From an uncultured Chloroflexia bacterium (GTDB taxonomy: Bacteria; Chloroflexota; Limnocylindria; Limnocylindrales; CSP1-4), in NCBI GenBank assembly GCA_963800795.1, contig CAWDCJ010000001.1, positions 280,855 to 344,854 of the forward strand: a stretch of DNA of 64,000 nt. Reading direction: 5' to 3'. Within the stretch, counting starts at the first letter, position 1, and every line of letters begins with the position of its first letter. Below, in pieces: positions 2,240 to 18,764 of the stretch. A program made the translations under genes and the position numbers. Below the pieces are notes generated by a model. That model was not told the DNA's origin. It saw only the letters and a list, made by a program, of their open reading frames with translations, and made no database searches.

Positions 2240-4393
2240 CTACCGGCGCAGGATGATCGGCTGGCCCAGCGAGTCGCGGAAGACCTGGATCAGGCCGCTC
2301 ACCGGCGGTGCAGCCGTGCCGGCGACGACGAGGAACGGGGCCGTTGCCGGAGCGGCCGGGACGCCCGAGAGCGTGACCACCGCGCGGAGCTTACGGGGCC
2401 CCTCGATGTCGCCCGGCAGGACGAGCACCTGGGCCGTGAACGATCCCGTCGAATCCGTGAAGACCGGCGCCAGGGCGGTCGGGGTGATCCCGACCGACCA
2501 GGTCAGGGTCACGGGTGCGTTGGCGGGGAAGCCTTCCCCCGTTGCGACCGTGACGAAGCCGGGCGGACCGACCGGCGGCTCGAGGCGGAGGAGCCCGACG
2601 CCGACCGCCGCGATGAGCTGGACGACCTCCGGCGGGCCGGCATCGGACGTGACGGAGAGCTGCGCGGTGCGCGTGCCGGTCGCCGTCCCGATGAAGAGCA
2701 GACCGAGCGGGCAGGACGCACCCGGCGCGAGCGTCGTCCCGGTACAGGGGTTGGCGCTGAGGAGGAAGTCGCCTGCGTTCGGGCCGCTGATCGCGATGGC
2801 CCCGACCTGCACTGGGCCCGTGCCGACGCTCAGGATGGTCGCACTCCGCGTCACTCCCAGGGTGCCGATCGGCACGCTGCCGAAGTCAACCGGGTTCGGC
2901 GAGACGATGATCGCAGGCTTGACGACCGGCTTTGGGGTCGGTGTCGGTGTCGGCGTCGGCGTCGGCGTCGGGCTGGGCGGCGGCTGGGGCGGGCGACGAT
3001 CCCGCACGAAGATGTCGGAGTTGCCGTTCGTGTCCCCCGGGACGAGGTTCGTGGCGCTCGACTCGAACACCACGAGCTGCGCGTTGAGCGCGAACGATGG
3101 TCGCAGGCTGTCGCCATCGGCCTGTGCCGGACCCAGGCCCACGCTCACGCGGGCGAGCCGGTCGATCTCGGGACCCGCCACGAAGAGGTCGGACACCTCG
3201 TTCGAGTCGCCGGGGACCAGGTTCGTGGCGGTCGAGGCGAAGACGATGGACCGCCCGTCGGCCGAGACAGCAGGCCAGGCGCTTGGGCCGTCCGCCTCGG
3301 TCCCATCCGGCGCCACCGAGACCCGCCGGAGGGCCGACCCGGCGGTCCAGGCAAAGATGTCCGCGACCCCGTTGCCGTCACCGGGAACCAGGTTCGAGGC
3401 CGCCGACTCGAACGCGATGACGCTCCCGTCCGGCGAGATCGCGGGGTGGTCGCTCAGGGCCGTGGCCGGCTGGCCTGCGGCCGCGGAGACGAGCGTCGTG
3501 GTTAGCGATCCTCGATCGCGCCGCCAGACTTGCATCGCCGGCAGCACGCCCCGGATGTACGTCAGGCCGGCCACGCCCGATCCCAGCAGGTTCTGGCTCG
3601 AGGCGAACGCAACCACCGATCCGTCGGCGGAGATCGCGAGCGACCCGTACTGCCGCCCGGGCGGCCCGGGGATGGACGAGCCGGTCGCTGCGCTCACGGC
3701 CTCGACGTACCCGGTCGCCAGGACCAGCACGTAGAAGCCGGCCGCCAACGGCGTGTCCGAATCGGCGTACCCGTCCGACTGGAACGCCAGGACGGTTCCG
3801 TCCGCCGACAGGCGTGGGTGATGAAGTGCCGAGTACGGCAGGTTGGAGAGGCCGGGCACGTTCCCGGTGAGCGTCCCGCTGGCCGGCAGGCTCAGCCCTG
3901 CGCCCCTGGTCCAGAGCACGATCGTGGGCTGCTGGTTGGCGTTCGTCAGGCCGAATGCGACCAGGGAGCCATCCGCCGAGACGCTCGGCTCCTCGACGGC
4001 GCCCGACGGCAACGGTTTCTCGAACAGGCCCGCGCTCGGCTGCTGCGTGGCAGGGAAGATCCGGGTCGTGGTCCCTGCCGCGCGGTCGGCGAGCATGATC
4101 CCGGTGGAGGCCGTGGCGGTGCCGACGAGCGAGACGCGATAGGCGACCCACCGGCCGTCGGGACTGACCGCCGCCTCGTCGGACGCGGTGCGAAGCAGCT
4201 GGGACCCGTCCGTGTTGAGCGAGACGCGCGCTGTATCGCCCGGTTCCAGCGAGATGGCCAGCGGCGCGGCGGGACCGCCGACCCGGTTCGCCGGGCCGCC
4301 CGAGCTCGTCACCGCCGCGATGGCGGGCGCCACGGTGAGGGCGCCCACGAGCCAGGCCGCGACCGCCAGGCCGACGCGCTGGCGCGGGTTCAT
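2240..4393 (-). CDS. secreted beta-propeller protein (TolB/PD40-like repeats) with PT linker and C-terminal choice-of-anchor-D-like Ig domains
   Basis: ORF 2240..4459; I prefer the internal ATG at 4393 (MNPRQRVGLAVAAWLVGALTVAPAIAA signal peptide), which removes the overlap with the upstream gene. Repeated S.DG..vaF.S.A.NLVPGD.N...D.F motifs. C-terminal NPVDFGSVPIGT...GPNAGDFLLS segment. Confidence 0.7.
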   Translation of the reverse strand: MNPRQRVGLAVAAWLVGALTVAPAIAAVTSSGGPANRVGGPAAPLAISLEPGDTARVSLNTDGSQLLRTASDEAAVSPDGRWVAYRVSLVGTATASTGIMLADRAAGTTTRIFPATQQPSAGLFEKPLPSGAVEEPSVSADGSLVAFGLTNANQQPTIVLWTRGAGLSLPASGTLTGNVPGLSNLPYSALHHPRLSADGTVLAFQSDGYADSDTPLAAGFYVLVLATGYVEAVSAATGSSIPGPPGRQYGSLAISADGSVVAFASSQNLLGSGVAGLTYIRGVLPAMQVWRRDRGSLTTTLVSAAAGQPATALSDHPAISPDGSVIAFESAASNLVPGDGNGVADIFAWTAGSALRRVSVAPDGTEADGPSAWPAVSADGRSIVFASTATNLVPGDSNEVSDLFVAGPEIDRLARVSVGLGPAQADGDSLRPSFALNAQLVVFESSATNLVPGDTNGNSDIFVRDRRPPQPPPSPTPTPTPTPTPTPKPVVKPAIIVSPNPVDFGSVPIGTLGVTRSATILSVGTGPVQVGAIAISGPNAGDFLLSANPCTGTTLAPGASCPLGLLFIGTATGTRTAQLSVTSDAGPPEVVQLIAAVGVGLLRLEPPVGPPGFVTVATGEGFPANAPVTLTWSVGITPTALAPVFTDSTGSFTAQVLVLPGDIEGPRKLRAVVTLSGVPAAPATAPFLVVAGTAAPPVSGLIQVFRDSLGQPIILRR
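2937..2972. repeat. hexanucleotide tandem repeat (GTCGGY)x6 encoding the (PT)n linker of the propeller protein
   Basis: Read directly: gtcggt gtcggt gtcggc gtcggc gtcggc gtcggg. The minus strand translates to PTPTPTPTPTPT. Confidence 0.9.
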
Positions 4394-4418
4394 GCGGCGC
4401 ACCGGGACTCCGGCCGCC

Positions 4419-5666
4419 TCAGGGGCGGACGAACCCGTCGAAGTAGACGGACGGGTCACACGCGCCGGACGACGTGCAGGTGGCCGCGAAGACGAGCTTC
4501 TGGCCCTTCTGGATCACGATCGGCGTCACGTAGTGGAAATCGAGGTCGCGGAAGTTCTCCAGGCGGAGCGTGATCAGCACGAACCCGTCGCGCAGGAGCT
4601 GGAGCGTTCCGGACCGGCCGTTCGGATTGGCGAAGACCAGGTCGGTCATGTAGAACGTCGAGCTGAACGTCGCGGTCGACGGGTTGGACCCGTCCGCGGC
4701 CAGCCGCCCGTCCTGCGGCACGCCGTTGCCGACCGGTGCCGGTGTCGGCGTCGGCGGGCCGGCCGAAGCGGCCGGGCTTGGCGATGCGCCGGCTCCGGCC
4801 GAGGCTGCCGGCGAGGGCGACGGCGACGCGCCACCGGGCGCCGGGCTGGGTCCTCCAGCGCCGGCGGCAGCGCTCGGTCGCGGCGTGAAACCCGCGTCGG
4901 ACAGCGCCTGGGTTGCCGCGCTCTGGATGGCCGGCTGCAGGAAGAGAGCCCAGACGAGCGCAGCGAGGACGAGCAGGCCCAGCAGGGCGAGGAGCGCCGG
5001 CACGAGCCAGCGCGGCAGCATCGCCTCCTGGACCATCGTGCCGTCGAGGACGATGGGACGCCCGTCCTCGCCCGCGACGGCGACCTTGAACGGGCGCGTC
5101 TTGGGCTGGCCACGCCAGAATCGCGTCACCGGCCTGACCCGGACCTTCGCGAACCCGGCGGTGCCGGGCTCCACGACCAGGCCGGGCGGCTGCACGTCGA
5201 AGCCGAGCAGCTGGTCCGGGTCCGCCGCCGTGATCGAGGCGTTGAGGCGGGCGTTGCCGCGGTTGTCGACCGCCAGCTCGTGGGTGGCGGTGCGGCTGCC
5301 CCGGGAGGAGCGCGGGACCAGCTCGGCGAACGTGTCGCTGAAGGAGGCGACGCTGAGCACGCCCTCCTCGACGGCGGACCCGGCCGGGTCCTCCTGGGAG
5401 CGGGCGCGGATCCCGAAGGGCAGATCCCCAGACGGCGTCGTGGAAGCGCGCGGCGGGGCGAAGGAGACGACGGCGCTGCCTTCAGCTCCCGGGAACAGAG
5501 AGAGCGTCGGTGGCTCGGCGGATGCGAATGCACCCGGGTCGCCCAGGACGTCGATCGTGAACTGGTCCACGACCGTGCCGGTGTTCTTGACGGTCACCGT
5601 GCACGACACGACCGAGCCGGGCACGACCTCGAGCGCCTTCGAGGCGAGGCTGACGAGTGCTCCCAT
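4419..5666 (-). CDS. bitopic membrane protein: N-terminal tandem Ig-like (CARDB-like) modules, TM helix, Pro/Ala linker, small C-terminal beta-rich domain
   Basis: 415-aa ORF. N-terminus LEVVPGSVVSCTVTVKNTGTVVDQFTIDVLG, TM WLVPALLALLGLLVLAALVWALF, then a PSPAP-rich spacer. No family name recognised with certainty. Confidence 0.65.
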   Translation of the reverse strand: MGALVSLASKALEVVPGSVVSCTVTVKNTGTVVDQFTIDVLGDPGAFASAEPPTLSLFPGAEGSAVVSFAPPRASTTPSGDLPFGIRARSQEDPAGSAVEEGVLSVASFSDTFAELVPRSSRGSRTATHELAVDNRGNARLNASITAADPDQLLGFDVQPPGLVVEPGTAGFAKVRVRPVTRFWRGQPKTRPFKVAVAGEDGRPIVLDGTMVQEAMLPRWLVPALLALLGLLVLAALVWALFLQPAIQSAATQALSDAGFTPRPSAAAGAGGPSPAPGGASPSPSPAASAGAGASPSPAASAGPPTPTPAPVGNGVPQDGRLAADGSNPSTATFSSTFYMTDLVFANPNGRSGTLQLLRDGFVLITLRLENFRDLDFHYVTPIVIQKGQKLVFAATCTSSGACDPSVYFDGFVRP

Positions 5667-7403: not shown

Positions 7404-9489
7404 TCAGCTTGTGGCGATCACGCCGAACCAGGTGCCGAACTCGGCTTCGACACACAGGCGGCCCAGCTTTCGGTATTCGCGAGCGGTCTCGCGCACGAGG
7501 TCCGCCATCGCCAGCGGCCGCTCTCCTGCCGCCGCTCGGAATGCTGCGCCGACGGCCACGTTCCTGATGTTTCCTCCCGACAGCGTGAAGCGCCGGGCCA
7601 GGAAGTCGACGTCGATATCGTCCGCCTTGGGCACACCCGCGGACAGGTTGCGCTTCCAGAGGCGGCGACGATCCTCGACATCGGGTACGGGGAAGTCGAC
7701 GATCGCGTCGAGCCGCCGGAGGAACGCCTCGTCCACGTTGGCACGGAGGTTCGTGGTGAGGACGGCCATGCCGTCGAAGACCTCCATCCGCTGGAGCAGG
7801 TAGGCCACCTCCACGTTCGCATAGCGATCCCGGGCATCCTTGACCTCGGAGCGCTTGCCGAAGATCGCGTCGGCCTCGTCGAAGAGGAGGACGCCGTTCA
7901 CCCGGTCCGCTTCGTTGAAGACCCGGTCGAGGTTCTTCTCCGTCTCGCCGATGTACTTGTCCACGATCGTCGAGAGGTCGATCACGTAGAGGTCCAGGCC
8001 GAGCGACCCCGCGATCACCTCCGCCGACATGGTCTTCCCGGTCCCGGAATCGCCGGCGAAGAGGGCGGTCACGCCGCGGCCCTTGAGCGACGTCCGGCCC
8101 AGGCCCCAGTCGTCGAGGACGCGGTCCCGGTGGCGCGCGCGCGCCGTCAGCTCGCCGAGCTGCTCGATGACCGGCGCGGGCAGGACGAGGTCCGACCAGC
8201 CGACGCGCGGCTCGATCCGGCGCGCGAGCCGGTCCAGGCCGGCCGCGTTCTGCGAGCGCGCGCCCGCCGCGACGTCGCCCACCGCGAGGGCCCGGCCGGC
8301 TGCGGCCGCCGTGAGCCGGCCCGCCTCGGCGGCCCGCTCCACCTGCTCCGGTGCCAGCCGGTAGGGGAGCGCGGCGATCGCGTTCGCCATCTCGCCGGAG
8401 GCGGATCCGTCAAGGGCCGCGTGCCACGCGTCGCGGCGTTCGGCGGGCGTCGGGAGCTCCGCCTCGACGAGGAAGGCCACGGTTCGCGACCACGCCGGGT
8501 CCCAGCCGCGCGCGCCGTGGAGGACCGTCACGCAGGCTGCCTCCGCGAACGCCCGCACGGCGGCCGGCCCGCGCTCCGCGAGCACGTCGACCGGTCCCGC
8601 GACCAGCCCGCATCCGCGGAGGCGGGCCTCGCGGATTGCCGCGGTCGCGGCATCTGCCTCCTCGCGGGGACCCAGGCGGCCCAGGTCGACCACCACCGGC
8701 GGCGGCCCCAGGCGTGCCGAGCGCTCGGGCGGCCACCGTGAGCGGCGCCGTGCCGATGCGCTCCCGCACGTAGGCCAGCCGCGCCCCGGCGCGAAGGCCG
8801 CGCTCCAGGGTCGCCGAGCCGGCGAGGTCGCGATCGGATGGCGTGACCTCGAGGGCGGCAACCAGCGGGTCGGTCGTGTCGTCGCCCACGAGATGGCCGG
8901 CAACGCGGTCGGGAACCCGGATCGCCCGGGTCAGGTACGGCCGTTCGGTGTCCTCCACGACCAGCAGGCCGCCCGCCATGAGCGGGCCCGCGACCCCGAG
9001 TCGAGCGCGCCCGGCGCCGGACGCGCCACCCGCTCCGACGAGCTCGAGGGCCAGCCCGATGCTGGCACGGCGGCGGGAGACGTCGTCGTGGAGGTATCCA
9101 TACAGGCGCTCGAAACGCGGGTCGAGGTCCGGCGCGAGCGCCACCAGGAGGAGCTCGACGTCGAGCGGCTGGAGGTCGAACGCGCGGACCAGCCGCCGCA
9201 GGCGCACATCCACCCCGGCCGCCTCGGCTGCCTCGGCCTCCGCCTCGACGACCCGGAGTCGCTCGATGGACGCGGGATCCGGCGCGGCGGGCAGGAGCGG
9301 AGCCGTCCCGCCCGCCAGCATCTCGTCCACCTGGACATCCGAAACGTACAGGCCGCGAAACCGGTCGTCGGGATCCGGGTCCGTTGCCCTCCGCCGGGCG
9401 ACCGCCGCGCGGATCCGGGCCTCGATCAGCTCGAGTCGCGCCGCGAGGTGGCCGACGGAGGCGTCGGCGACCGGGGAGACGAGTGCCAT
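7404..9489 (-). pseudogene. eCIS AAA+ ATPase (Afp15/Pvc15-like), frame-disrupted in this assembly
   Basis: The N-terminal half lies in ORF 8410..9489 (MALVSPVADASVGHLAARLELIEARI...). The C-terminal half lies in ORF 7404..8903, with Walker A GDSGTGKT, LLFDEADAIFGKRSEV and VLTTNLRANVDEAFLRRL. The frames switch around 8697-8720 next to a GGGG run. Confidence 0.85.
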
Positions 9490-10230: not shown

Positions 10231-10518
10231 CCGGTGCACCCCAGGCTGCAGGTCGCGGATCCGCCGGTCGCGGCCGGCCCGGAACCGACGCCCGGACAGG
10301 CGCACGCACGGTGACGGGCACGACCGCCCGCCGGGTCACCTTGGCAAGACGGGCGCCCGACGGCAAGCCGCCTCGGGGCAGCCGATCGGGTCACCGCCCG
10401 TGCCCGATGGGGCACCACGACCGGCCCGTTCGGCTGTCCGGACGCCCGTTGTCCTGGCCGGATGCCCGGTGCACGCTCGAGCGGTCCCTACCTCCGCAGC
10501 CCGGGAGGGCCGATCCGC
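10231..10518. promoter_or_regulatory. divergent control region between the cap/ATPase arm and the sheath operon (elements unresolved)
   Basis: 288-bp gap between divergent starts. Contains GGTGAC...GTCACC inverted half-sites (about 10301-10340), a second GGTCACC (about 10388) and a GGGAGGG RBS at 10503-10509. Confidence 0.3.
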
Positions 10519-12036
10519 ATGCCGAACTACCTTTCGCCTGGCGTCTACGTCGAGGAGGTCCAGGCCGCCTCGCGCCCCATCGAGGGGGTCGGGACGGCCG
10601 TTGCGGCCTTCGTCGGCCTGGCCCAGAGCGGGCCCGCCAACACACCGCTGATGGTGACGAACTGGACCCAGTTCGTGACCACGTTCGGTGACTTCATGGA
10701 GGGGTCGTACCTCGCCCACGCGGTCTACGGCTTCTTCCTCAACGGCGGGACGACCGCCTACGTCGTCCGGATCGGCGCCGACGGCGCCGGCGCGCCGACC
10801 GCCCGCCTGGAGCTGCCGAGCTCCACGGACAAGGGCCAGGCCGCGTTTCGCGTTGTTGCCCTGGAGGCCGGGTCCGCGGGCAACAATGTCTCGGTCGAAG
10901 TCAGCGACCCGTCCGAGCCGGGCGAAGGTGTCTTCAAGCTGGTCGTGACGCGCGGCAGCGAGACCGAGGTCTACGACAACGTCAGCCTCAAGAAGGGCCG
11001 CAACAACGTCTTCACCGCCACGAAGACCTCCAAGCTGGTCCGCCTGGAGGAGACGGCCAAGGGCGACGTGGCCCCCGCCACCGGCACGAAGGCCGTGCTC
11101 ACGGGCGGGACCGCCACGACCCCGACCCGCGTGACGCCGGACGAGTACGTCGGCAACTCGGCCGACCGCACCGGCTTCGGCGGCCTCGAGGCGATCGAAG
11201 AAGTGACGATGGTGGCCGCGCCGGACCTGATGGCGCTCTACCAGCGCGGGGTCATCGACCTCGAAGGCGTCAAGGCCGTCCAGCTTGCGATCATCGCCCA
11301 CTGCGAGCTGATGGGCGACCGCGTGGCGATCCTCGACGCTCCACCCGACTACAACGCCCAGCAGGTCAAGGAGTGGCGCCAGGACAAGGCGGGCTACGAT
11401 TCCAAGTACGCGACGCTCTACTGGCCCTGGATCAAGGTCTTCGACCCGATCGCCGGACAGGCGGCATTCGTACCGCCGTCCGGCCACATGGCCGGGATCT
11501 GGGCCCGCAGCGACGGGGAGCGGGGCGTCCACAAGGCGCCGGCGAACGAGATCGTGCGCGGCGCCATCTCGCTCGAGCTGAACCTCACCCGGGCGGAGCA
11601 CGACCAGCTGAACCCGATCGGGGTCAACTGCATCCGCACCTTCCCCGGCCGCGGGATCCGCGTCTGGGGTGCCCGGACGCTCTCCTCCGATCCCGCGTGG
11701 CGCTACCTCAACGTCCGCCGGCTCTTCAACTACATCGAGGAGTCGATCCTGCTCGGGACGCAGTGGGTGGTCTTCGAGCCGAACGACATGGACCTCTGGG
11801 AGCGCGTGAAGCGCACGATCGGGGCCTTCCTCGTCCGCACCTGGCGTGACGGCGCGCTGTTCGGCGCATCGCCGGCCGAGGCCTTCTACGTGAAATGCGA
11901 CGGCGAGAACAACACGGCCGAGTCGATCGACGCCGGCCAGCTGATCGTGGACATCGGAATCGCACCGGTGAAGCCGGCCGAGTTCGTGATCTTCCGCCTT
12001 GCCCAGTTCTCCGGCGGCACGTCCCTGACGGAGTGA
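10519..12036 (+). CDS. contractile tail sheath protein (Afp2-4/Cis2-like)
   Basis: ORF 10462..12036; start at ATG 10519 after a GGGAGGG RBS. The N-terminus MPNYLSPGVYVEEV and the C-terminal WRYLNVRRLFNYIEESI...YVKCD region are classic sheath motifs. Confidence 0.95.
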   Translation: MPNYLSPGVYVEEVQAASRPIEGVGTAVAAFVGLAQSGPANTPLMVTNWTQFVTTFGDFMEGSYLAHAVYGFFLNGGTTAYVVRIGADGAGAPTARLELPSSTDKGQAAFRVVALEAGSAGNNVSVEVSDPSEPGEGVFKLVVTRGSETEVYDNVSLKKGRNNVFTATKTSKLVRLEETAKGDVAPATGTKAVLTGGTATTPTRVTPDEYVGNSADRTGFGGLEAIEEVTMVAAPDLMALYQRGVIDLEGVKAVQLAIIAHCELMGDRVAILDAPPDYNAQQVKEWRQDKAGYDSKYATLYWPWIKVFDPIAGQAAFVPPSGHMAGIWARSDGERGVHKAPANEIVRGAISLELNLTRAEHDQLNPIGVNCIRTFPGRGIRVWGARTLSSDPAWRYLNVRRLFNYIEESILLGTQWVVFEPNDMDLWERVKRTIGAFLVRTWRDGALFGASPAEAFYVKCDGENNTAESIDAGQLIVDIGIAPVKPAEFVIFRLAQFSGGTSLTE

Positions 12037-12077: not shown

Positions 12078-12536
12078 ATGCCAGCTGGAGTTCCCTCGCT
12101 GCCGCAGGATGCCCTGGTCGCGCAGCGCTTCAAGATCGAGGTCAAGGGGACGACGATCGCCACGTTCCAGGAGGTCAGTGGCATCGTCTCCGAGATCGAG
12201 GTCGTCACGCTCAAGTCCAACGACATCCTGGGCAAGCCGATCGTGAAGCAGATGATCGGCGCCCAGAAGCCGCCGACCATCACCCTCAAGCGTGCCGCCG
12301 ACGCGAGCATGGACCTGTGGAACTGGCACAAGGCCGCCCGTGATGGGGACCTCGTGGGCGCCCGCCGGGAAGGTTCCATCGTCCAGCTCGACTTCACCCA
12401 CGCCGAGGTCGCCCGCTACAACTTCTTCGATGCCTGGATCTCCAAGCTCGAGGCGACGGGCATGAAGGCCGGCGACAACACCCCGGCCGTGGAGAGCGTG
12501 ACGATCGTGTGCGAGCGGCTCGAGCGGGTGAAGTGA
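12078..12536 (+). CDS. tail tube protein (T4 gp19-like; Afp1/Cis1-like)
   Basis: 152-aa ORF with an AGGAGGA RBS upstream. FKIEVKG...FQEVSGI...ITLKR pattern of eCIS tube proteins. Confidence 0.9.
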   Translation: MPAGVPSLPQDALVAQRFKIEVKGTTIATFQEVSGIVSEIEVVTLKSNDILGKPIVKQMIGAQKPPTITLKRAADASMDLWNWHKAARDGDLVGARREGSIVQLDFTHAEVARYNFFDAWISKLEATGMKAGDNTPAVESVTIVCERLERVK

Positions 12537-12537
12537 G

Positions 12538-12969
12538 GTGGTGCTCGACCTGATCGCAGGGCCGGCCGCCATGCGCGCGCCCGGCCCTGCGCCGGCGGGC
12601 CTGCGGACCGAGTTCCCGTTCGTGCTTCCCCGCGGCTACCTGGACGACGCGGGCGTCCTTCACCGCGAGGGCTCCATGCGCCTCGCGACGGCCCGGGACG
12701 AGATCGCCCCGCTCCGCGACCCTCGCGTCCGCGACAACGAGGCCTACCTGACGGTGCTCCTGCTCAGCGAGGTCGTGACAAGGCTGGGCACCGTCCCGCA
12801 GGTGACGCCACGCGTCATCGAGGGGATGTTCGCGTCGGACCTGGCGTTCCTGCAGGACCTGTACCGACGGGTCAACCAGGAGGGGACGTCGCAGGCCGCC
12901 GTGACCTGTCCGTCCTGCCAGCACGAGTTCAGCGTGGAGATCGGGGGCGCCTCGCCGGGGGGGTCGTGA
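12538..12969 (+). CDS. tail-assembly-chaperone-like protein (eCIS conserved ORF between tube and tape measure)
   Basis: 143-aa ORF with a GTG start 2 nt after the tube stop. FPFVLPRGY..HREGSMRLATARDEI...DLAFLQDLY resembles phage tail assembly chaperones. The position (tube, then this ORF, then tape measure) fits. Confidence 0.6.
   Translation: MVLDLIAGPAAMRAPGPAPAGLRTEFPFVLPRGYLDDAGVLHREGSMRLATARDEIAPLRDPRVRDNEAYLTVLLLSEVVTRLGTVPQVTPRVIEGMFASDLAFLQDLYRRVNQEGTSQAAVTCPSCQHEFSVEIGGASPGGS
12957..12963 (+). other. G7 homopolymer phased as G_GGG_GGG at the end of the chaperone-like ORF: candidate -1 frameshift or slippage site
   Basis: Codons ccg ggg ggg tcg tga. A -1 slip enters the frame of the small ORF 12966..13124 (..PGG|VVTYAADRLFEE..). 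Confidence 0.4.
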
Positions 12970-13124
12970 CGTACGCGGCCGACCGCCTCTTCGAGGAGGT
13001 CGCGTACGTCGCCTACCACTTTCATTGGCCGATGAACGAGATCCTCGACCTGGAGCACCCGGACCGGGCTCGCTTCGTCGCGGAGATCGCGGGAATCAAC
13101 CGGCGCCTGACCGAAGAGGAGTGA
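12966..13124 (+). CDS. small conserved eCIS-linked ORF (52 aa) in the -1 frame relative to the chaperone-like ORF
   Basis: Not in the ORF track (under 60 aa). Hand translation gives VTYAADRLFEEVAYVAYHFHWPMNEILDLEHPDRARFVAEIAGINRRLTEEE. GTG overlaps the upstream stop (GTGA). Third codon positions are G/C-rich. Confidence 0.55.
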   Translation: MTYAADRLFEEVAYVAYHFHWPMNEILDLEHPDRARFVAEIAGINRRLTEEE

Positions 13125-14479
13125 GCCCGTCGTGCGCTGGCCGTTCACCAACTTGTTTCGCGGGGCAGCGGCCCGCGAGGATGCCTCGTCCGCTGGGATC
13201 GAGACGGCGTCTCCAGGGGCCGACGAGCCTGCCGATCCCGGGCCCGCCGGTGAGTCGCGCCCGGCAGCCTGGCGGGACCTGCCCCCGGTGCAGCGCGCCG
13301 TCGGGGCGGCGCCCGTCACCGCGCCCAGCACGGCATTCGCGCGTGGCCTGGCCGGTCGGCGGGTGCCCGACCCGATGCTGGCGCCGCTCGCGCACGACAT
13401 GATGGCCGACGGGCCCGCGGGGCTGGTGAGTGGCCTCGCCGTGCCGCTGGTCCCGCGTGCCCCGTCCGTTTCCGATCCACGGTCCGCCGCCGACCTGCCG
13501 GCGCCCGCCGCCGATCGCATGCGTCCCCGGCCACGCGGCACGGTGTCGACGGCGGCGGCCAGTCCCCGCCTGGCCGGTCGGGAGGACGCGGCGGCCGACA
13601 CGAACGACCAGGGCGCGGCAGCCGTGCCCGGTGACATGGCGACGGCCGGTGGGCCGGAGTCAGGTCTCCCGACGATTGCGCAACGCGTCCTGCCGGTGGC
13701 CCGGATGGCCGCGAGCGGTCCGGCCGCGAGCGGGCCTGCCGCGCCCGCGCTGGCCATCGCGGCGACCCGGGTCGGCGAGGCCACCGCCCCCGCCCCGATC
13801 GTCGCGCGCGCGGTCCCGCTCGTGCCCGCCACAGCCGGATCCGCCATCGCCCCGGGGGCCTCGGAGCTGCCGGCGTCGACCACGGCCCCGGATGGCACCG
13901 GGCTGGCGAGTGGCCCCGTCGGGGAGCGGGCCGCCGACACCGGCCCAGGTGCCCGCGGATGGGGTCGATCGCGGGCCCGTGATCATCGGCAGGCGAACCC
14001 TGGGCGAGTCCCGCCGCCTTGGCCTGGGGGCGCCGCTGGCGGGGATCCCGCCGACGGCTGCACGGACGAAGGGACGTGCGGACCTGCCCGTGGCGCGGCT
14101 CGCCTCCCCGGCGTCGGCGCCGCCCGATCCGGCGTCCGTGGCGCGGGCGGTCCCGCCCCCCGTGGCCGCCGCCGCGGCGACGCAGGCGCCGCTTCCGCGG
14201 CTCGTGGTCGCGCGCCGGCCGCCGTTGGTTACGGGCTCTGGGTCGGGGACGGGTCCTGCGGACTCCGGACGTGAGGCCGAACGTCCCCTCGCGTCGCCCG
14301 CCGCGGTTGCCGCCGATACGGGTTCCGCCGGTTCGGTGGACGACACGACCGAGGCGACGCGCCTGGACCCGGCGCAGGGCGGGCGCACCGACGGCGGCGG
14401 CTCCGGCCCGGCTCGGCCGCTGGTCGGGGAGCAGCCGATCGCGGTGTCGGACCTGGCCCCCGGGGAGGCGCACGCGAAC

Positions 14480-14506
14480 GCCGACGCCGACGCCGATGCC
14501 GACGCC
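14480..14506 (+). repeat. (GCCGAY)n hexamer repeat encoding ADADADADA
   Basis: Read directly: gcc gac gcc gac gcc gat gcc gac gcc. Confidence 0.85.
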
Positions 14507-14599
14507 CGCGCCTTCGGGACCCTGCCGCTGCAACGCGCCACGCTGCCTCGTCCGCCGAGCGACGTCTCGGCCGCCGGTCGCGGCAGCGACGGTGACGGT

Positions 14600-14631
14600 G
14601 TGCCCGCTGACGGTCGTGCCCGCTGACGGCC
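14600..14631 (+). repeat. 16-bp direct tandem duplication (gtgcccgctgacgg + 2 nt, two copies)
   Basis: Copy 1 is at 14600-14613 and copy 2 at 14616-29. Each encodes VPADG, but in different frames. Confidence 0.85.
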
Positions 14632-15423
14632 CGCCCTTGCAGCGCAGCCGGGCGTCGGACGCGGCGGCTTCGCCGTCGCCGCCGGCCGGAGCTCAGCCGG
14701 CGCTCCGCGGCGCGCCCGCGACGGCCCCGTTGGTCGCCGGTCGCTCGGCGCGCCCGGGCGTGTCGCTGCCGGTCGCCACCCTGGCGCGCGCCACTTCGGC
14801 CGATCCGGCTGCGGTCACCAGCCGTCTCGCGACCCCGGTCTCGCCCGCCTTCGGAGGAGGGCAGGAGCGGGTTCCTGCAGCGGCCCGGGACGTGGCTCGT
14901 CCCGCGCCGTCCGCCGCGCCGGCCGCGGCCCTCCAGCGCGAGGAGCGCACGACCGCGGCGCGGGCAACGACGCTCGCCGATCGAGGATCGGGGTCCGCGG
15001 CGGCGACCGCGCTGCCGCTCATGCGCTCGTCGGCGACCGCGGCCGCGCCCGCCGCATTCCCGGCCGCCTTCGCGGCTGCCGGCCCGGACGATGCCGTCGG
15101 ATGGTCGCCCGCGACCGGGTTCACGAGCTTCGCCGCGCAGCCCGGTCCGTTCGTCCAGCGCGCCGTCCAGATCGATGAGCTGGCGGTCACGCCGGCGGGG
15201 GACGGCGCTGGCGGTGCGGCTCCCGAAACTGCGGGATCGGCTGCGGGTCCGTCAGGCGCGACCGCTGCGGGCGGCGAGGGCACCGACTACGAGGAGCTCG
15301 CGGAGCAGGTCTACGACAAGATCCGCGCGCGGCTGATGACGGAGCTGCTCCTGGACCGGGAGCGGGCCGGAATGCTGGTGGACTGGTGAGCGCCGCCGCA
15401 CGCCGGGTTACCGGGAGGTCGCG

Positions 15424-15849
15424 ATGAGCGATCCGGAGTACGGCCTCGTCCTTCGCTTCAAGGTCACCCTGGACGGCCACACGGAGCTCGGCGCCTGGAC
15501 CAAGTGCGAGGGCCTGTCCGTCGAGTACGACGTCCAGGAGATCAAGGAAGGCGGCCAGAACGACTACATCCACCGGCTCGCGGGCCGCGCGAAGTACCAG
15601 AACATCAAGCTGACCCGGCCGATCGACAAGGACACCGGCAAGGTCGCGACATGGCTGGCCTCCGTCGCCAGCGAACCGAAGCGCTCGACCGCGGAGATCC
15701 AGCTCCTCGACGCGGGCGGCACCAAGGTCACCTCGTGGAAGCTCGCGGGCGTCTACCCGGCGAAGTGGTCGGGGCCGACCCTTGACACGGGCACGAACCA
15801 GGTTGCGCTCGAGGTCCTCGAGCTCGTCCATAACGGGTTCACGCGATGA
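15424..15849 (+). CDS. second tail tube paralogue (Afp5-like)
   Basis: 141-aa ORF. FKVTLDG...WTKCEGLSVEYDV..IKEGG and LTRP patterns are shared with T4 gp19-like tube proteins. Confidence 0.85.
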   Translation: MSDPEYGLVLRFKVTLDGHTELGAWTKCEGLSVEYDVQEIKEGGQNDYIHRLAGRAKYQNIKLTRPIDKDTGKVATWLASVASEPKRSTAEIQLLDAGGTKVTSWKLAGVYPAKWSGPTLDTGTNQVALEVLELVHNGFTR

Positions 15850-16571: not shown

Positions 16572-18351
16572 ATGCCCGACGCCCCGGTCGCCACGTTCTT
16601 CCGGATCGAGATCGACGGCCAGCCGCTCGACCCCGCCGTGGTTTCGAGCGTTCTCCACCTCACCGTGGACGACCATCTCGTGCTCCCCGACACGTTCGAG
16701 ATCGTGCTCCAGGAGACGCCGGACAGGGACGTGGCCAACAAGGCGCACGCGAGGATCGGGTCGAGGGTCACCATCTCCGGGCGGGCGCTCAGCGACCATG
16801 CGCCGATGCCGCTCTTCACCGGCGAGGTGACGGCGCTCGAGGGCGAGTACCGCGAGGCCAAGGCGCCGACGTTGGTCATCCGTGGCTACGACCAGGGCCA
16901 CCGGCTCATGCACGGGCGGCGCTCGGCCGTGTTCCGGCAGCAGAAGTACTCGGATATCGCGCAGCAGATGGCAACGCAGCTGGGGCTCGATGTCGGGACC
17001 ATCGCTGACTCGCGGACCGTGTTCGAGTACGTCCACCAGGCAGGCCAGACCGCCTGGGAGTTCCTGACCGACAAGGCAGACGAGGTCGGCTTCCAGGTCG
17101 GCGTGAACGATGGCAAGTTCAACTTCGCCCCGCCGCCGGCCGCGTCGAGCGGCCCCGATGCCGGCGACCTCAACAGCACCAACCCGCTCCAGCTGGTCTT
17201 CGGTCAGGAGCTGAAGGAGTTCCACCCACGGATGACGGCCGGGAGCCAGGTGGCCAAGCGTCAGCGTTCTCGGCTGGGACCCGTCCAGCAAGAGCAGCGC
17301 TGATCGCGCGAGGAACCGACCACGGCGAGCGGCGTTCAGCTGTCGGACACGCCGCCATCCGTGGTTACCGCGTTCGGCTCGCCCGGGTACGTGAGCGGGG
17401 ACAGGCCACGCACCACGCAGGCCGTCGTGGAGGCCGCCGCCAAGTCCCACGCCGAGCAGCACGGCAGCGCCTTCGCGGGGGCGACCGGGATCGCTGACGG
17501 CAACCCCAGGCTCAAGGCCGGCGCATCGGTCAACGTCTCCCTGGTCGCCGCGCCCTTTGCCGGGCGCTACACGCTGACGCACACCCGCCACGTCTTCGAC
17601 AAGAAGGGCTACCGCGTGCACCTCGACATGAGCGGTCTCCAGGAGCGGACGCTCCTGTCACTGGCCTCGGGTGGCGGCGGTGGCGCCGGTTCGGGGAGCG
17701 GCGGTGGCGGCGGTTCCGGGGGCTCCGTGCGAGGCGTGCAGATCGGCCTGGTGACGGACAACCAGGACCCGGACAACCAGGGGCGCGTCCGGGTGCAGCT
17801 GCCCTACTTCGGACCTGACTTCGTGACCAACTGGGCCCGGGTCGTCGCTCCCGGAAACGGCCAGAACCGGGGCTTCGTGTGGATTCCCGAGGTCCACGAC
17901 GAGGTCCTCGTCGCGTTCGACCACGGGGACATCAGCGAGCCGTACGTGCTGGGCGGCCTCTGGAATGGCAAGGACCCACCCCCGCCGATCGAGCTCGACG
18001 GGGACCACCTCGAAGGCCCGCAAGATCGTCAGCCGGACCGGCCAGAAGCTCGTCTTCTCGGACGAGTCGGGCAAGGAGGGGATCCTGATCTCCTCCGCCG
18101 ACGGCACGATCTCGGTCCTGGTGGACTCGGCCAACAAGAAGGTCGTGATCACGTCCGACGGGAGCGGAACCGTGGAGATGAAGAGCGGGGGCGACTTCAC
18201 GATCGACTCCCAGGGCTCCGTGAAGATCAGCGGCACAGCCGGTGTCGAGATCAGCTCGTCGGCGAGCACGAAGGTGAGCGGAGATGGCCAGCTCTCGCTG
18301 GAGTCCTCGGGCATCACGTCCGTCAAGGGCTCCCAGGTCTCGCTGGGCTGA
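16572..18351 (+). pseudogene. VgrG-like spike (gpD + gp5 OB + beta-helix; Afp8-like), three frame changes in this assembly
   Basis: The gpD-like N-terminus is in ORF 16572..17303. A short excursion to another frame at 17257-17299 reads SVSVLGWDPSSKSSA. The sequence returns to the frame of ORF 17361..18764 (Gly-rich linker, then VTDNQDPDNQGRVRVQLPYF ... GGLWNGKDPPP). It switches near 18012-18020 to ORF 17965..18351 (RKIVSRTGQKLVFSDESG ... beta-helix). Confidence 0.9.
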
Positions 18352-18362
18352 GGAGGGCCGCC

Positions 18363-18764
18363 ATGCTCAATGACGAGTTCATCGGCGCCGGCTGGGCATT
18401 CCCCCTGCGGACCGACGCGGCCGGCGGGATCGCCCTGGTCACCCGGGAACGCGAGATCGAGGAAAGCATCCGGCTGATCCTGGGAACGGCCCACGGGGAG
18501 CGCCCCATGCGCCCCGAGTTCGGCTGCGGCATCCACGACGAGATCTTCGCCCTGGCCGACGCGGCCACGTTCGCCCGGATTGCCGCCGACGTGCGCCGCT
18601 CGCTGCGCCGCTGGGAGCCGCGCATCGACGTTCGCGACGTGGAGGTGACGGCGGACCCGGACGACCAATCCACGCTCTACATCGACATTCGCTACTCGAT
18701 CGGGTCGGCCAACAACCCGCGCAACCTCGTCTTCCCGTTCTACCTGATTCCCGCGGAGGAGTGA
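18363..18764 (+). CDS. baseplate wedge protein, GPW/gp25 family (Afp9-like)
   Basis: ATG 18363 within ORF 17361..18764. MLNDEFIGAGWAFPLR...ESIRLILGTAHGERPMRPEFGCGIHD is the gp25 signature. Confidence 0.9.
   Translation: MLNDEFIGAGWAFPLRTDAAGGIALVTREREIEESIRLILGTAHGERPMRPEFGCGIHDEIFALADAATFARIAADVRRSLRRWEPRIDVRDVEVTADPDDQSTLYIDIRYSIGSANNPRNLVFPFYLIPAEE

What the first reader, a model, noticed from the sequence alone, without database searches (positions are those of the whole stretch)
12538..13124. Candidate programmed -1 frameshift (G_GGG_GGG) joining the chaperone-like ORF to a small -1 ORF, directly upstream of the tape-measure-like gene
The chaperone-like ORF ends ccg ggg ggg tcg tga. The G7 run (12957-12963) is phased as X_XXY_YYZ. 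A -1 slip there reads straight into the 52-codon ORF 12966-13124, giving ..ASPGG|VVTYAADRLFEE... The gene order (tube, chaperone, -1 extension, tape measure) is the same synteny as lambda G/GT and P2 E/E+E', where a conserved -1 frameshift makes two chaperone isoforms. I know of no description of this in eCIS loci. Caveats: Y=G is a non-canonical slippery site, and the small ORF also has its own GTG in a GTGA overlap. This assembly is indel-prone at G/C runs, so one extra G (G8) would simply fuse the two ORFs.
Basis: partly seen in the sequence, partly recalled or inferred. Interest (0 to 1): 0.75.

Follow-up and report, generated by a model that had tools for sequence, protein, structure and literature searches.

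The report
Conserved frameshift in injection-system chaperone gene
The small gene after the tube gene of this phage-tail-like injection system is very probably read by ribosomes that slip back one base at a run of G's, giving a short and a long form of an assembly chaperone just as phages do; this has not been described for these bacterial systems.

Summary
ORF-A (12538-12969) ends ccG GGG GGG tcg TGA. The G7 run (12957-12963) is phased X_XXY_YYZ, and the 52-codon ORF-B (12966-13124, Pfam DUF6760) lies in the -1 frame.

Comparative evidence strongly supports a programmed -1 ribosomal frameshift:
- DUF6760 is in the -1 frame in all 157 evaluable related loci (81 genomic including the window, 76 metagenomic; GC 35-77%, several phyla).
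- 156 of 157 carry an in-phase slippery heptamer. GGGGGAA dominates and is the heptamer reported for about a thousand actinophage tail-chaperone frameshifts. Variants include GGGGGGG (the window), GGGGGGA, GGGGGAG, GGGAAAA and TTTTTTA.
- About a third have no start codon for ORF-B.
- A stem-loop a few bases after the heptamer is conserved, with compensatory changes.

ORF-A matches a phage "tail assembly chaperone" family and links distantly to T4 gp26/gp51. Bacillus phage BCD7 has the same cassette, unannotated.

Close relatives end identically, so G7 is not an assembly error. No protein-level evidence exists. In the window itself, separate initiation at the GTG cannot be excluded. The "tape measure" identity of the downstream gene is unproven.

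This is a new member of a known kind.

The parts
10462..12036 (+). Tail sheath gene (context)
   Evidence: Pfam Phage_sheath_1 2.7e-25 and Phage_sheath_1C 6.5e-20.
12078..12536 (+). Inner tube gene (gp19-like), immediately upstream of ORF-A
   Evidence: Pfam Phage_T4_gp19 5.2e-27; TIGR02241 1.2e-24.
12538..12969 (+). ORF-A, 143 aa: chaperone-like 0-frame product. It has a conserved core (MRLATARDEI, FASDLAFLQDLYRR), a single CPxC motif, and ends ...PGGS.
   Evidence: Translation. PHROG phrog_508 'tail assembly chaperone', E 2e-6, matched by 18 of 19 family members. More than 7600 homologues. Distant relatives fall in Pfam PF12322, the T4 gp26/gp51 family.
12957..12963 (+). Slippery heptamer G_GGG_GGG in 0-frame phase (P-site GGG 12958-12960, A-site GGG 12961-12963)
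   Evidence: Read directly. The equivalent position in 81 loci reads GGGGGAA 67, GGGGGGA 7, GGGGGGG 6, GGGAAAA 1. In 76 metagenomic loci it reads GGGGGAA 47, GGGGGGG 11, GGGGGAG 7, GGGGGGA 5, five other single heptamers, and none in 1.
12964..12969 (+). Six bases between the heptamer and the first usually paired base (12970), containing the last sense codon TCG and the 0-frame stop TGA (12967-12969). In the window's own fold the helix extends back to 12966.
   Evidence: The same 6-base spacing is seen in the low-GC relatives L084 and L081.
12966..13012 (+). Stem-loop 3' of the heptamer. 12966-12980 pairs with 12998-13012 (15 bp in the window). The conserved core is about 12971-12980 with 12998-13007.
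   Evidence: Window fold: -31.9 kcal/mol, z -2.2; -42 kcal/mol, z -2.9 in a longer context. On 80 loci, 89% of cells are paired versus 17-47% with slid partners. The covariation score is 0.132 versus 0.072+-0.005 (0/500 shuffles reach it). There are 29 double-sided changes versus 5.2 expected, and 7 pairs with compensatory change. The 50 nt starting 4 nt after the heptamer have mean z -2.9 in both locus samples, versus -0.3 to -0.4 for internal controls.
12963..13124 (+). -1 frame reading: GTC (12963) then ORF-B (GTG 12966 to stop 13122-13124). This is the DUF6760 domain. As a C-terminal extension it gives a 195-aa ORF-A/B fusion with junction ...ASPGG|VVTYAADR.
   Evidence: Pfam DUF6760 E 1e-13. 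The -1 frame peptide GG[IVT][VLA]TY is conserved immediately after the heptamer, including where the 0-frame tail differs (S* versus *) and where no start codon exists.
13132..15389 (+). Downstream long Pro/Ala/Gly-rich gene, in the position of a tape measure. In the window it is broken over three reading frames.
   Evidence: Relatives encode a conserved 550-780+ aa protein here, starting MRWPF.../MGLMSWLR... with a W-x-x-LPP-[IL]-QR motif. L001's 752-aa protein matches the window in frame 1 (13132-13464), frame 2 (13985-14050) and frame 3 (15099-15386). There is no Pfam or PHROG hit.
15424..15849 (+). Second gp19-type tube gene (Cis5-like), context
   Evidence: Pfam Phage_T4_gp19 4.6e-30.
7404..8903 (-). 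AAA+ ATPase, divergent from the sheath operon; marks the locus as a contractile injection system rather than a prophage tail
   Evidence: Pfam AAA 4.1e-23. Baseplate genes lie downstream: CIS_tube, GPD, Phage_base_V, gp25, Baseplate_J, Tail_P2_I.

Best explanation
ORF-A and ORF-B form a programmed -1 ribosomal frameshift cassette in the tail-assembly-chaperone gene of a contractile injection system.

Proposed mechanism:
1. Most ribosomes translate ORF-A and terminate at TGA 12967-12969, giving a 143-aa chaperone-like protein.
2. A fraction pause on G_GGG_GGG (12957-12963) because of the stem-loop that begins a few bases downstream.
3. The two Gly-tRNAs re-pair one base back, and translation continues in the -1 frame through the DUF6760 domain. 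This gives a 195-aa ORF-A/DUF6760 fusion.

By analogy with lambda G/GT and P2 E/E+E', the common N-terminal part would hold the long protein encoded next. The frameshift-only C-terminal domain would recruit tube subunits, at a ratio fixed by the frameshift efficiency.

Shown here: the sequence anatomy, its conservation, the covarying stem-loop, the frequent absence of any start codon for DUF6760, and the homology to phage chaperone families.

Inferred: that slippage actually occurs, its efficiency, and the roles of the two domains.
For: (1) Anatomy in the window.

(2) Frame conservation. DUF6760 is in the -1 frame in 81/81 loci, taken from GTDB species-representative genomes plus the window. 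The taxa include Chloroflexota, Limnocylindrales, Dormibacterota and many Actinomycetota. It is also -1 in 76/76 evaluable metagenomic loci of 35-71% GC. None is in frame or +1.

(3) Slippery site. In-phase heptamers are GGGGGAA 67+47, GGGGGGG 6+11, GGGGGGA 7+5, GGGGGAG 0+7, GGGAAAA 1, plus TTTGGGG, CCCGGGG, GGGGGGT, TTTTTTA and CCCTTTC; only 1 locus has none. More distant relatives have C_CCG_GGG, G_GGG_GGA and T_TTT_TTT. The sequence changes but slipperiness and phase persist.

(4) GGGGGAA is the 'fivetwo' slippery motif seen in about a thousand SEA-PHAGES tail-assembly-chaperone frameshifts. There tRNA-Glu re-pairs on GGA through a G:U pair (PMC10885494). It was also proposed for corynephage phi16 (PMC5506516).

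(5) Codon bias. GGG and GAA at the junction run against local codon usage, and the X base is G in 81/81 across 7 different codons.

(6) No independent start. 24/81 genomic loci have no ATG/GTG/TTG at the junction. In 14 of these the -1 frame is closed 16-43 nt upstream with no start in between. 30/76 metagenomic loci have no start in the open -1 frame. In the low-GC loci L081 and L084 the 0-frame stop lies 13 codons past the heptamer. The conserved N-terminus of DUF6760 is encoded before that stop, and gene callers did not call it.

(7) Stem-loop with covariation. L084 has a 13-bp helix with a 6-base spacer, z -5.7.

(8) Chaperone homology. ORF-A matches phrog_508 'tail assembly chaperone' (the tandem form P0123 scores 6e-18). 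Distant members match PF12322, which holds T4 gp26 and the hub-assembly chaperone gp51.

(9) True myophages have the homologue between the tube gene and a gene of more than 1000 aa. Bacillus phage BCD7 ends ctG GGG GAG TAA, followed by an unannotated -1 ORF that matches DUF6760.

(10) G7 is real: five close relatives from other assemblies end ...SPGGS.
Against: - There is no protein, ribosome-profiling or reporter evidence. Everything is comparative.
- In the window ORF-B has a GTG (12966) preceded by the G run, which could act as a short-spaced Shine-Dalgarno sequence. Separate initiation is therefore possible here and in the roughly 70% of relatives with GTG or ATG at that spot.
- G_GGG_GGG has not, to my knowledge, been measured as a frameshift site.
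- The chaperone assignment rests on weak profile matches: 28.5 bits to a PHROG, no Pfam hit for the window protein itself, and no PDB relative.
- The AlphaFold model of ORF-A was poor, mean pLDDT 56.7.
- The downstream gene has no recognisable tape-measure signature. In low-GC relatives the next gene is a tube paralogue instead.
- L006 has the canonical G_GGA_AAA but no clear stem-loop.
- L158 has no recognisable heptamer.
Confidence: 0.8

Rival explanations
1. ORF-A and ORF-B are two separate, translationally coupled genes. ORF-B starts at its own GTG in the GTGA overlap, or by termination-reinitiation. The G run is kept because it serves as the ribosome-binding site and/or encodes Gly-Gly. 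No fusion protein is made.
For: The window has GTG 12966 overlapping the TGA stop, with a purine-rich G run just upstream. 57 of 81 genomic relatives have GTG or ATG at or 3 nt before that position. Pfam treats DUF6760 as a stand-alone family, and most databases hold ORF-A as a separate ~140-aa protein.
Against: - 24/81 genomic loci have no start codon at the junction, and 30/76 metagenomic loci have none in the open -1 frame. CTG, GCG, ACG, ATT or AGC occupy the position instead.
- In L081, L084 and L089 the 0-frame stop lies 8-13 codons after the heptamer. Conserved DUF6760 residues are encoded upstream of it, which reinitiation cannot explain.
- The spacing from G run to GTG is only 2-4 nt.
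- An RBS role does not explain the strict codon phase of the run. Nor does it explain its replacement by GGGAAAA, TTTTTTA or CCCTTTC, or the covarying stem-loop.
- The residue before the GTG in the -1 frame (I/V) is conserved.
Confidence: 0.1
2. The fusion is made by transcriptional slippage. RNA polymerase adds or drops a G in the homopolymer run, producing some mRNAs in which ORF-A and ORF-B are in frame.
For: The window has a G7 homopolymer, and some relatives have G7 or T7. Rare database proteins look like run-length variants: L176 has G9, and L083 has an extra base next to the run.
Against: Most loci have only G5 followed by AA (114 of 157), too short for efficient polymerase slippage as generally understood (established knowledge: runs of about 7-9 or more A/T are usually needed). 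L006 has GGGAAAA. The constant X_XXY_YYZ codon phase and a downstream stem-loop at 4-7 nt are hallmarks of ribosomal slippage, not transcriptional slippage.
Confidence: 0.05
3. The junction is an assembly artefact or a pseudogene. The true sequence has G8 (or G5), so ORF-A and ORF-B are simply one gene.
For: The window does look indel-prone or decayed. The next gene is split over three frames relative to its 752-aa orthologue. The spike and gp25 genes are oddly split and fused. A few database proteins are in-frame fusions with the predicted junction PGG[IV][VL]TY.
Against: Five near-identical proteins from independent assemblies end ...SPGGS at the same length. None of the 157 evaluable DNA loci has the two ORFs in frame. 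The fused database proteins are singletons. One comes from a contig whose sheath and tube genes are also fragmented (L175). Others switch frame upstream of the run.
Confidence: 0.03

Closest known systems
Lambda G/GT and P2 E/E+E' tail assembly chaperones made by a conserved -1 frameshift (Xu, Hendrix and Duda 2004; cited from my own knowledge)
   Same: Two overlapping ORFs lie just after the tube (major tail) gene and before a long gene. The second ORF is in the -1 frame. An in-phase slippery heptamer sits near the end of the first ORF. The arrangement is conserved while the sequences diverge. The predicted outcome is a short and a long isoform sharing an N-terminus.
   Different: There is no detectable sequence similarity to the G, T or E proteins. 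The locus is a bacterial contractile injection system with an AAA+ ATPase, not a virus. The extension is a 52-aa DUF6760 domain. The 0-frame stop follows the heptamer by one codon. No experimental evidence exists, and the tape-measure identity of the next gene is unproven.
Actinobacteriophage tail assembly chaperone frameshifts with the GGGGGAA ('fivetwo') motif (PRFect paper PMC10885494; corynephage phi16 PMC5506516)
   Same: The identical heptamer G_GGG_GAA occurs in 114 of 157 related loci, and high-GC hosts are shared. The re-pairing logic is the same: Gly-tRNA GGG to GGG, and Glu-tRNA GAA to GGA through a G:U pair. phi16 was likewise proposed to have a downstream RNA structure.
   Different: Those are siphophage and myophage genes annotated as such. 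Here the genes sit in chromosomal injection-system loci, are annotated as two hypothetical proteins, and belong to a different protein family. The window itself has the G7 variant.
T4 gp26 and gp51 (Pfam PF12322 T4_baseplate; gp51 is annotated as the baseplate hub assembly chaperone)
   Same: Distant ORF-A homologues score 7e-11 to 2e-17 against PF12322; these are L091, Bacillus phage BCD7 0090 and Streptomyces phage LuckySocke gp90. T4 gp26 and gp51 are both members. All are non-structural or poorly placed tail and hub assembly factors encoded near the tape measure.
   Different: The window's ORF-A does not itself reach PF12322 and is about half the length; tandem two-domain forms exist, such as P0121 and P0123. 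T4 genes 26 and 51 have no annotated frameshift extension. Gene 26 instead has an internal in-frame product, 26'.
Cis6/Afp6/Pvc6/Alg6 spike plug of contractile injection systems (PMC8894136, PMC12546770)
   Same: A small (~55 aa), largely helical protein encoded next to the tube genes, essential for particle assembly.
   Different: There is no sequence match between DUF6760 profiles and any solved chain. Cis6 is encoded between Cis5 and Cis7, whereas DUF6760 lies before the Cis5-like tube gene. Cis6 has its own start.

Membership tests
Phage-type tail assembly chaperone pair produced by -1 programmed frameshift (G/GT, E/E+E') | Two overlapping ORFs immediately downstream of the tube/major tail gene | tested here: met
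   The tube gene ends at 12536, ORF-A starts at 12538, and ORF-B overlaps ORF-A by 4 nt. The same order is found in relatives and in phages BCD7 and LuckySocke.
Phage-type tail assembly chaperone pair produced by -1 programmed frameshift (G/GT, E/E+E') | Located immediately upstream of the tape measure gene | tested here: inconclusive
   A conserved 550-780+ aa Pro/Ala/Gly-rich gene follows in high-GC relatives, and a gene of more than 1000 aa follows in the phages. However, there is no family hit, and in low-GC relatives a tube paralogue comes next.
Phage-type tail assembly chaperone pair produced by -1 programmed frameshift (G/GT, E/E+E') | Second ORF in the -1 frame of the first | tested here: met
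   True of the window and of 157/157 evaluable loci.
Phage-type tail assembly chaperone pair produced by -1 programmed frameshift (G/GT, E/E+E') | Slippery heptamer in 0-frame phase inside the overlap | tested here: met
   G_GGG_GGG at 12957-12963. 156/157 relatives have a slippery heptamer in the same phase.
Phage-type tail assembly chaperone pair produced by -1 programmed frameshift (G/GT, E/E+E') | Second ORF lacks its own translation start (it is expressed only as an extension) | tested here: inconclusive
   The window has GTG 12966. Across the family, 24/81 loci have no ATG/GTG/TTG at the junction and 30/76 have none in the open -1 frame. The feature is therefore met for the family but open for this locus.
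Phage-type tail assembly chaperone pair produced by -1 programmed frameshift (G/GT, E/E+E') | Both the short and the frameshifted long protein are made | not testable with these tools
   This needs proteomics, a reporter assay or ribosome profiling. Published particle proteomics mention only sco4251 (PMC10020575). I assign sco4251 to ORF-A by gene position only.
Phage-type tail assembly chaperone pair produced by -1 programmed frameshift (G/GT, E/E+E') | Sequence membership in a known tail assembly chaperone family | tested here: met
   phrog_508 'tail assembly chaperone', E 2e-6 for the window and matched by 18/19 family members; 6e-18 for P0123. The match is weak for the window protein. No Pfam or NCBIfam chaperone family is matched.
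Pfam DUF6760 (PF20546) | Score above the curated gathering threshold | tested here: met
   ORF-B scores 51.6 bits against a cutoff of 27, E 1e-13, profile positions 5-52 of 89.
Pfam PF12322 T4_baseplate (T4 gp26/gp51) | Score above the curated gathering threshold | tested here: not met
   The window's ORF-A has no hit even at E<=1. There is only a transitive link through L091, BCD7 and LuckySocke. I therefore do not file ORF-A as a member.
Cis6/Afp6/Pvc6 spike plug | Sequence similarity to solved plug proteins, and a position between the Cis5 and Cis7 genes | tested here: not met
   A DUF6760 profile and a single low-GC sequence find no PDB chain. DUF6760 lies upstream of the Cis5-like gene at 15424-15849.
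Contractile injection system locus (Afp/PVC-like, as opposed to a prophage tail) | Sheath, tube, spike, gp25, baseplate J/I genes plus an AAA+ ATPase; Pvc16_N-type terminator | tested here: inconclusive
   Sheath, two gp19 tubes, CIS_tube, GPD, Phage_base_V, gp25, Baseplate_J, Tail_P2_I and an AAA ATPase were all found. No Pvc16_N hit was found among the ORFs scanned, and not all ORFs were scanned. The related locus L084 does carry Pvc16_N.

The most novel reading that the evidence does not exclude
DUF6760 is never an independent protein. Across a whole class of contractile injection systems and a set of myophages it exists only as the frameshift-added tail of the chaperone. The long isoform would be more than a transient chaperone: it would be built into, or would prime, the particle. 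One possibility is that it fills the role of the Cis6-type plug, which has no gene at the Cis5/Cis7 junction of this locus. The sco4251 product, which I assign to ORF-A by gene position only, was detected in purified Streptomyces particles. The frameshift efficiency would then set how many particles a cell can initiate.
Probability: 0.15. Interest if true: 0.75.

Novelty: new member of a known kind. Interest (0 to 1): 0.62.

Why it matters
Contractile injection systems of Streptomyces and relatives are under active study for cell death, development and protein delivery. Their published gene lists treat these two ORFs as unknowns. They also state that a typical tape measure is absent, and neither paper mentions a frameshift or a tail-assembly chaperone (PMC10066040, PMC10020575).

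If the frameshift is real:
- These systems keep the phage tail-length and assembly module: chaperone short form, long form, then a long protein.
- DUF6760 gains a role.
- Hundreds of genomes, and at least one phage record, need a recoding annotation.
- Heterologous expression or engineering of such systems would have to preserve the heptamer and the stem-loop to keep the isoform ratio.

It also adds a large, phylogenetically broad data set (GC 35-77%) for the non-canonical G_GGG_GAA / G_GGG_GGG class of bacterial slippery sites.

Tried and rejected
- Pfam and NCBIfam on ORF-A gave nothing.
- PDB sequence searches found no relatives. Queries were the ORF-A and DUF6760 profiles, a low-GC DUF6760 and the tandem form P0123.
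- tblastn of the fusion against 50,697 phage records gave no match. Only the more distant L091 protein reached phages.
- AlphaFold2 of ORF-A with a 19-sequence alignment gave mean pLDDT 56.7, too poor for a fold search, so none was run. Only close homologues could be submitted, and a 50-residue helical domain would give unspecific fold matches.
- Rfam found nothing relevant in 12800-13200.
- RNAalifold on the ungapped alignment gave only a weak consensus. The helix was therefore tested explicitly with pair counts.
- 'Natural in-frame fusions' first looked like strong support. On inspection they are singletons that switch frame upstream, come from a contig with other broken genes, or differ by one base in or beside the run. 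I give them little weight.
- Literature searches found no description of this frameshift. The terms were DUF6760, SCO4250/4251, 'contractile injection' with frameshift or chaperone, Afp6/Pvc6/Cis6 and PF12322.
- The idea that DUF6760 is the Cis6 plug was considered. It is not supported by sequence or gene position.
Full report
**1. The observation**

The window reads ...gcc tcg ccG GGG GGG tcg TGA cgt acg....
- ORF-A (12538-12969, 143 aa) stops at 12967-12969.
- The run of seven G's is 12957-12963. Its first G is the third base of a 0-frame codon, giving the phase G_GGG_GGG.
- ORF-B (12966-13124, 52 aa) begins with a GTG in a GTGA overlap and is in the -1 frame.
- A -1 slip gives ...ASPGG|VVTYAADRLFEE..., 195 aa in all.
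- ORF-B is Pfam DUF6760 (E 1e-13). The genes upstream are a sheath (10462-12036) and a gp19-type tube (12078-12536).

The locus is a contractile injection system rather than a prophage tail.
- A second gp19 tube, CIS_tube, GPD hub, Phage_base_V, gp25, Baseplate_J and Tail_P2_I genes follow.
- An AAA+ ATPase (7404-8903, minus strand) lies divergently upstream.

**2. Conservation of the frame relationship**

A search with the hypothetical fusion found more than 7600 homologues. Nearly all are ~140-aa ORF-A-only proteins.

I fetched DNA for 80 species-representative genomes. They include Chloroflexota, Limnocylindrales, Dormibacterota, Streptomyces, Micromonospora, Nocardia and Cellulomonas. Counting the window, DUF6760 is in the -1 frame of ORF-A in all 81.

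A second, independent sample of 80 metagenomic loci was seeded with lower-GC members (GC 35-71%). It gave 76 evaluable loci, all with DUF6760 in the -1 frame. No locus in either sample has the two ORFs in frame or at +1.

**3. The slippery site**

At the position of the window's G7 the 81 loci read GGGGGAA (67), GGGGGGA (7), GGGGGGG (6) and GGGAAAA (1), always in the same codon phase.

The metagenomic loci read GGGGGAA (47), GGGGGGG (11), GGGGGAG (7) and GGGGGGA (5). GGGGGGT, TTTGGGG, CCCGGGG, TTTTTTA and CCCTTTC occur once each, and one locus has none. More distant relatives from IMG/VR have C_CCG_GGG, G_GGG_GGA and T_TTT_TTT.

Codon usage runs against expectation at the junction:
- GGG is 26% of Gly codons elsewhere in these genes but 80/81 at the junction.
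- GAA is 16% of Glu codons elsewhere but accounts for every Glu codon at the junction.
- The preceding codon is CTG, CCG, TCG, CAG, GTG, GCG or AAG, which encode seven amino acids, yet it always ends in G.

GGGGGAA is not canonical by the eukaryotic-virus rule. The PRFect paper reports it as the invariant 'fivetwo' motif of about a thousand annotated actinophage tail-assembly-chaperone frameshifts. It explains it by G:U re-pairing of tRNA-Glu on GGA (PMC10885494). The same heptamer was proposed for corynephage phi16 (PMC5506516).

**4. ORF-B often cannot start on its own**

- In 24 of 81 genomic loci the codon at the window's GTG position is CTG, GCG or ACG, and no ATG/GTG/TTG lies at the junction.
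- In 14 of these the -1 frame is closed by a stop 16-43 nt upstream with no start in between.
- In 30 of 76 metagenomic loci there is no start codon anywhere in the open -1 frame before the domain.
- In two low-GC loci (L081, L084) the junction is ttG GGG GAA tca and tcG GGG GAA tcg. The 0-frame runs on for 13 more codons. The conserved start of DUF6760 (Y-x-L-D-x-[IL]-Y-x-E-V-A-F) is encoded upstream of that stop, there is no start codon, and the gene callers left the region empty.
- The -1 frame peptide GG-[IVT]-[VLA]-T-Y is conserved from the heptamer onward, even where the 0-frame tail differs (S-stop versus stop).

**5. A stimulatory RNA structure**

In the window 12966-12980 pairs with 12998-13012 (15 bp; -31.9 kcal/mol in a 59-nt context).

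On an ungapped alignment of 80 loci this helix behaves as follows:
- 89% of cells are paired, against 17-47% when the partner is slid by 1-3 columns.
- The covariation score is 0.132 against 0.072 +- 0.005, reached by 0 of 500 shuffles.
- There are 29 double-sided changes against 5.2 expected, and 7 pairs with compensatory change.

Some compensations cross amino-acid changes. T-Y-G with S-Y, and T-Y-P with G-Y, stand in place of T-Y-A with A-Y.

L084 has a 13-bp helix with a 6-base spacer (z -5.7), and L081 a near-perfect one. The 50 nt that start 4 nt after the heptamer have mean z -2.9 in both samples, against -0.3 to -0.4 for segments inside ORF-A.

The one locus with the classical G_GGA_AAA heptamer (L006) lacks a convincing stem.

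**6. What the proteins are**

- ORF-A matches PHROG phrog_508, 'tail assembly chaperone' (E 2e-6; 18 of 19 family members match; the tandem-domain relative P0123 scores 6e-18).
- It has no Pfam, NCBIfam or PDB relative.
- A distant homologue (L091) and its phage relatives score 7e-11 to 2e-17 against Pfam PF12322. I confirmed that this family contains both T4 gp26 and the hub-assembly chaperone gp51.

In Bacillus phage BCD7 and Streptomyces phage LuckySocke the homologue sits between the tube gene and a gene of more than 1000 aa.
- BCD7_0090 ends ctG GGG GAG TAA. The 186-nt 'intergenic' gap holds a -1 ORF that matches DUF6760 over the same profile range as the window's ORF-B (E 1e-4, below the gathering score).
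- The cassette is therefore phage-derived and predates the injection systems.

**7. Is G7 an artefact?**

The window does look indel-prone or decayed. The next gene matches L001's 752-aa protein in three different frames. But P0001 (97% identical), P0002, P0003, P0042 and P0049 come from other assemblies, and all end ...SPGGS. G7 also recurs in 16 other loci.

The in-frame 'fusions' in protein databases are singletons. They switch frame upstream of the run, come from a contig whose sheath and tube genes are also fragmented, or carry one extra base in or beside the run. I treat them as probable indels.

**8. Mechanism and rivals**

The best explanation is tandem -1 ribosomal slippage on the heptamer, stimulated by the stem-loop. 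It would give a short and a long chaperone isoform, as in lambda G/GT (confidence about 0.8 for the family, somewhat less for this particular G7 locus).

- Pure translational coupling fails for a third of the family, though it may coexist with frameshifting in loci that keep a GTG.
- Transcriptional slippage is unlikely, because most runs are only G5 and the codon phase is fixed.
- The functional split is inferred by analogy and untested. In it, the N-terminal part would bind the long downstream protein and DUF6760 would bind tube subunits.

**9. Novelty**

Searches of the held literature found no mention of a frameshift or a tail assembly chaperone in these loci.
- The two Streptomyces CIS papers list sco4251 as a protein of unknown function. 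I assign it to ORF-A by position in the sheath-tube operon only.
- One of those papers states that a typical tape measure is absent.
- Cis6/Afp6/Pvc6 is a different protein, the spike plug.

The mechanism is the known phage one. What is new is its presence, breadth and unannotated state in contractile injection systems, and a role for DUF6760.

Noticed in passing
window 13132-15389: The long Pro/Ala/Gly-rich gene after ORF-B is split over three reading frames: 13132-14274, about 13985-14050, and 14019-15389. The total span equals the 752 aa of the orthologue in L001. This means either assembly indels or a decaying gene. Relatives share an N-terminal MRWPF.../MGLMSWLR... and a W-x-x-LPP-[IL]-QR motif, but match no Pfam family.
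   Followed up: partly
window 16572-18764: The spike region looks rearranged or indel-affected. A 243-aa ORF carries only the GPD hub N-terminal part. The next ORF (17361-18764) carries both the Phage_base_V OB domain and a gp25 domain, which are normally separate genes (spike and sheath initiator).
   Followed up: no
L092 (Bacillus phage BCD7, JN712910.1) about 4190-4400: The GenBank record leaves a 186-nt gap after BCD7_0090. The gap contains a -1 frame DUF6760-like ORF preceded by ctG GGG GAG, which is probably an unannotated tail-chaperone frameshift in a real phage.
   Followed up: partly
L093 (Streptomyces phage LuckySocke, OR725497.1) about 4200-4440: After gp90 (PF12322 family) a weakly DUF6760-like ORF (my own reading; no significant Pfam hit) lies in the +1 frame, not -1. 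Annotated gene 91 starts at an internal ATG, which cuts off the first half of the ORF. This may be a +1/-2 recoding variant or a mis-annotated start.
   Followed up: no
L006 2881-2975 (Dormibacterota MAG): This is the only genomic locus with the textbook heptamer G_GGA_AAA. It is also the one tested locus without a convincing downstream stem-loop (z +0.6), as if a more slippery site needs less stimulation.
   Followed up: partly
P0121, P0123, P0129, P0133; loci L081, L084: Lower-GC relatives encode ORF-A as a tandem duplication, two chaperone domains in one 245-250 aa protein. That is about the size of T4 gp26/gp51, which suggests the single-domain form in the window is the half-size version. 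L085 and L086 members lack any DUF6760 extension, and L086 is not in an injection-system context.
   Followed up: partly
L174 (phage T4) 2803-4229: T4 gp26 ('baseplate hub') and gp51 ('hub assembly chaperone') both match PF12322 over their full length (8.8e-64 and 3.9e-52), so they are paralogues. Gene 26 also has an annotated internal product 26', a different way of making two isoforms.
   Followed up: no
L158 (metagenome, GC 37%): This is the only evaluable locus with no recognisable slippery heptamer (cag agg gaa tct TAA), although DUF6760 is still in the -1 frame.
   Followed up: no
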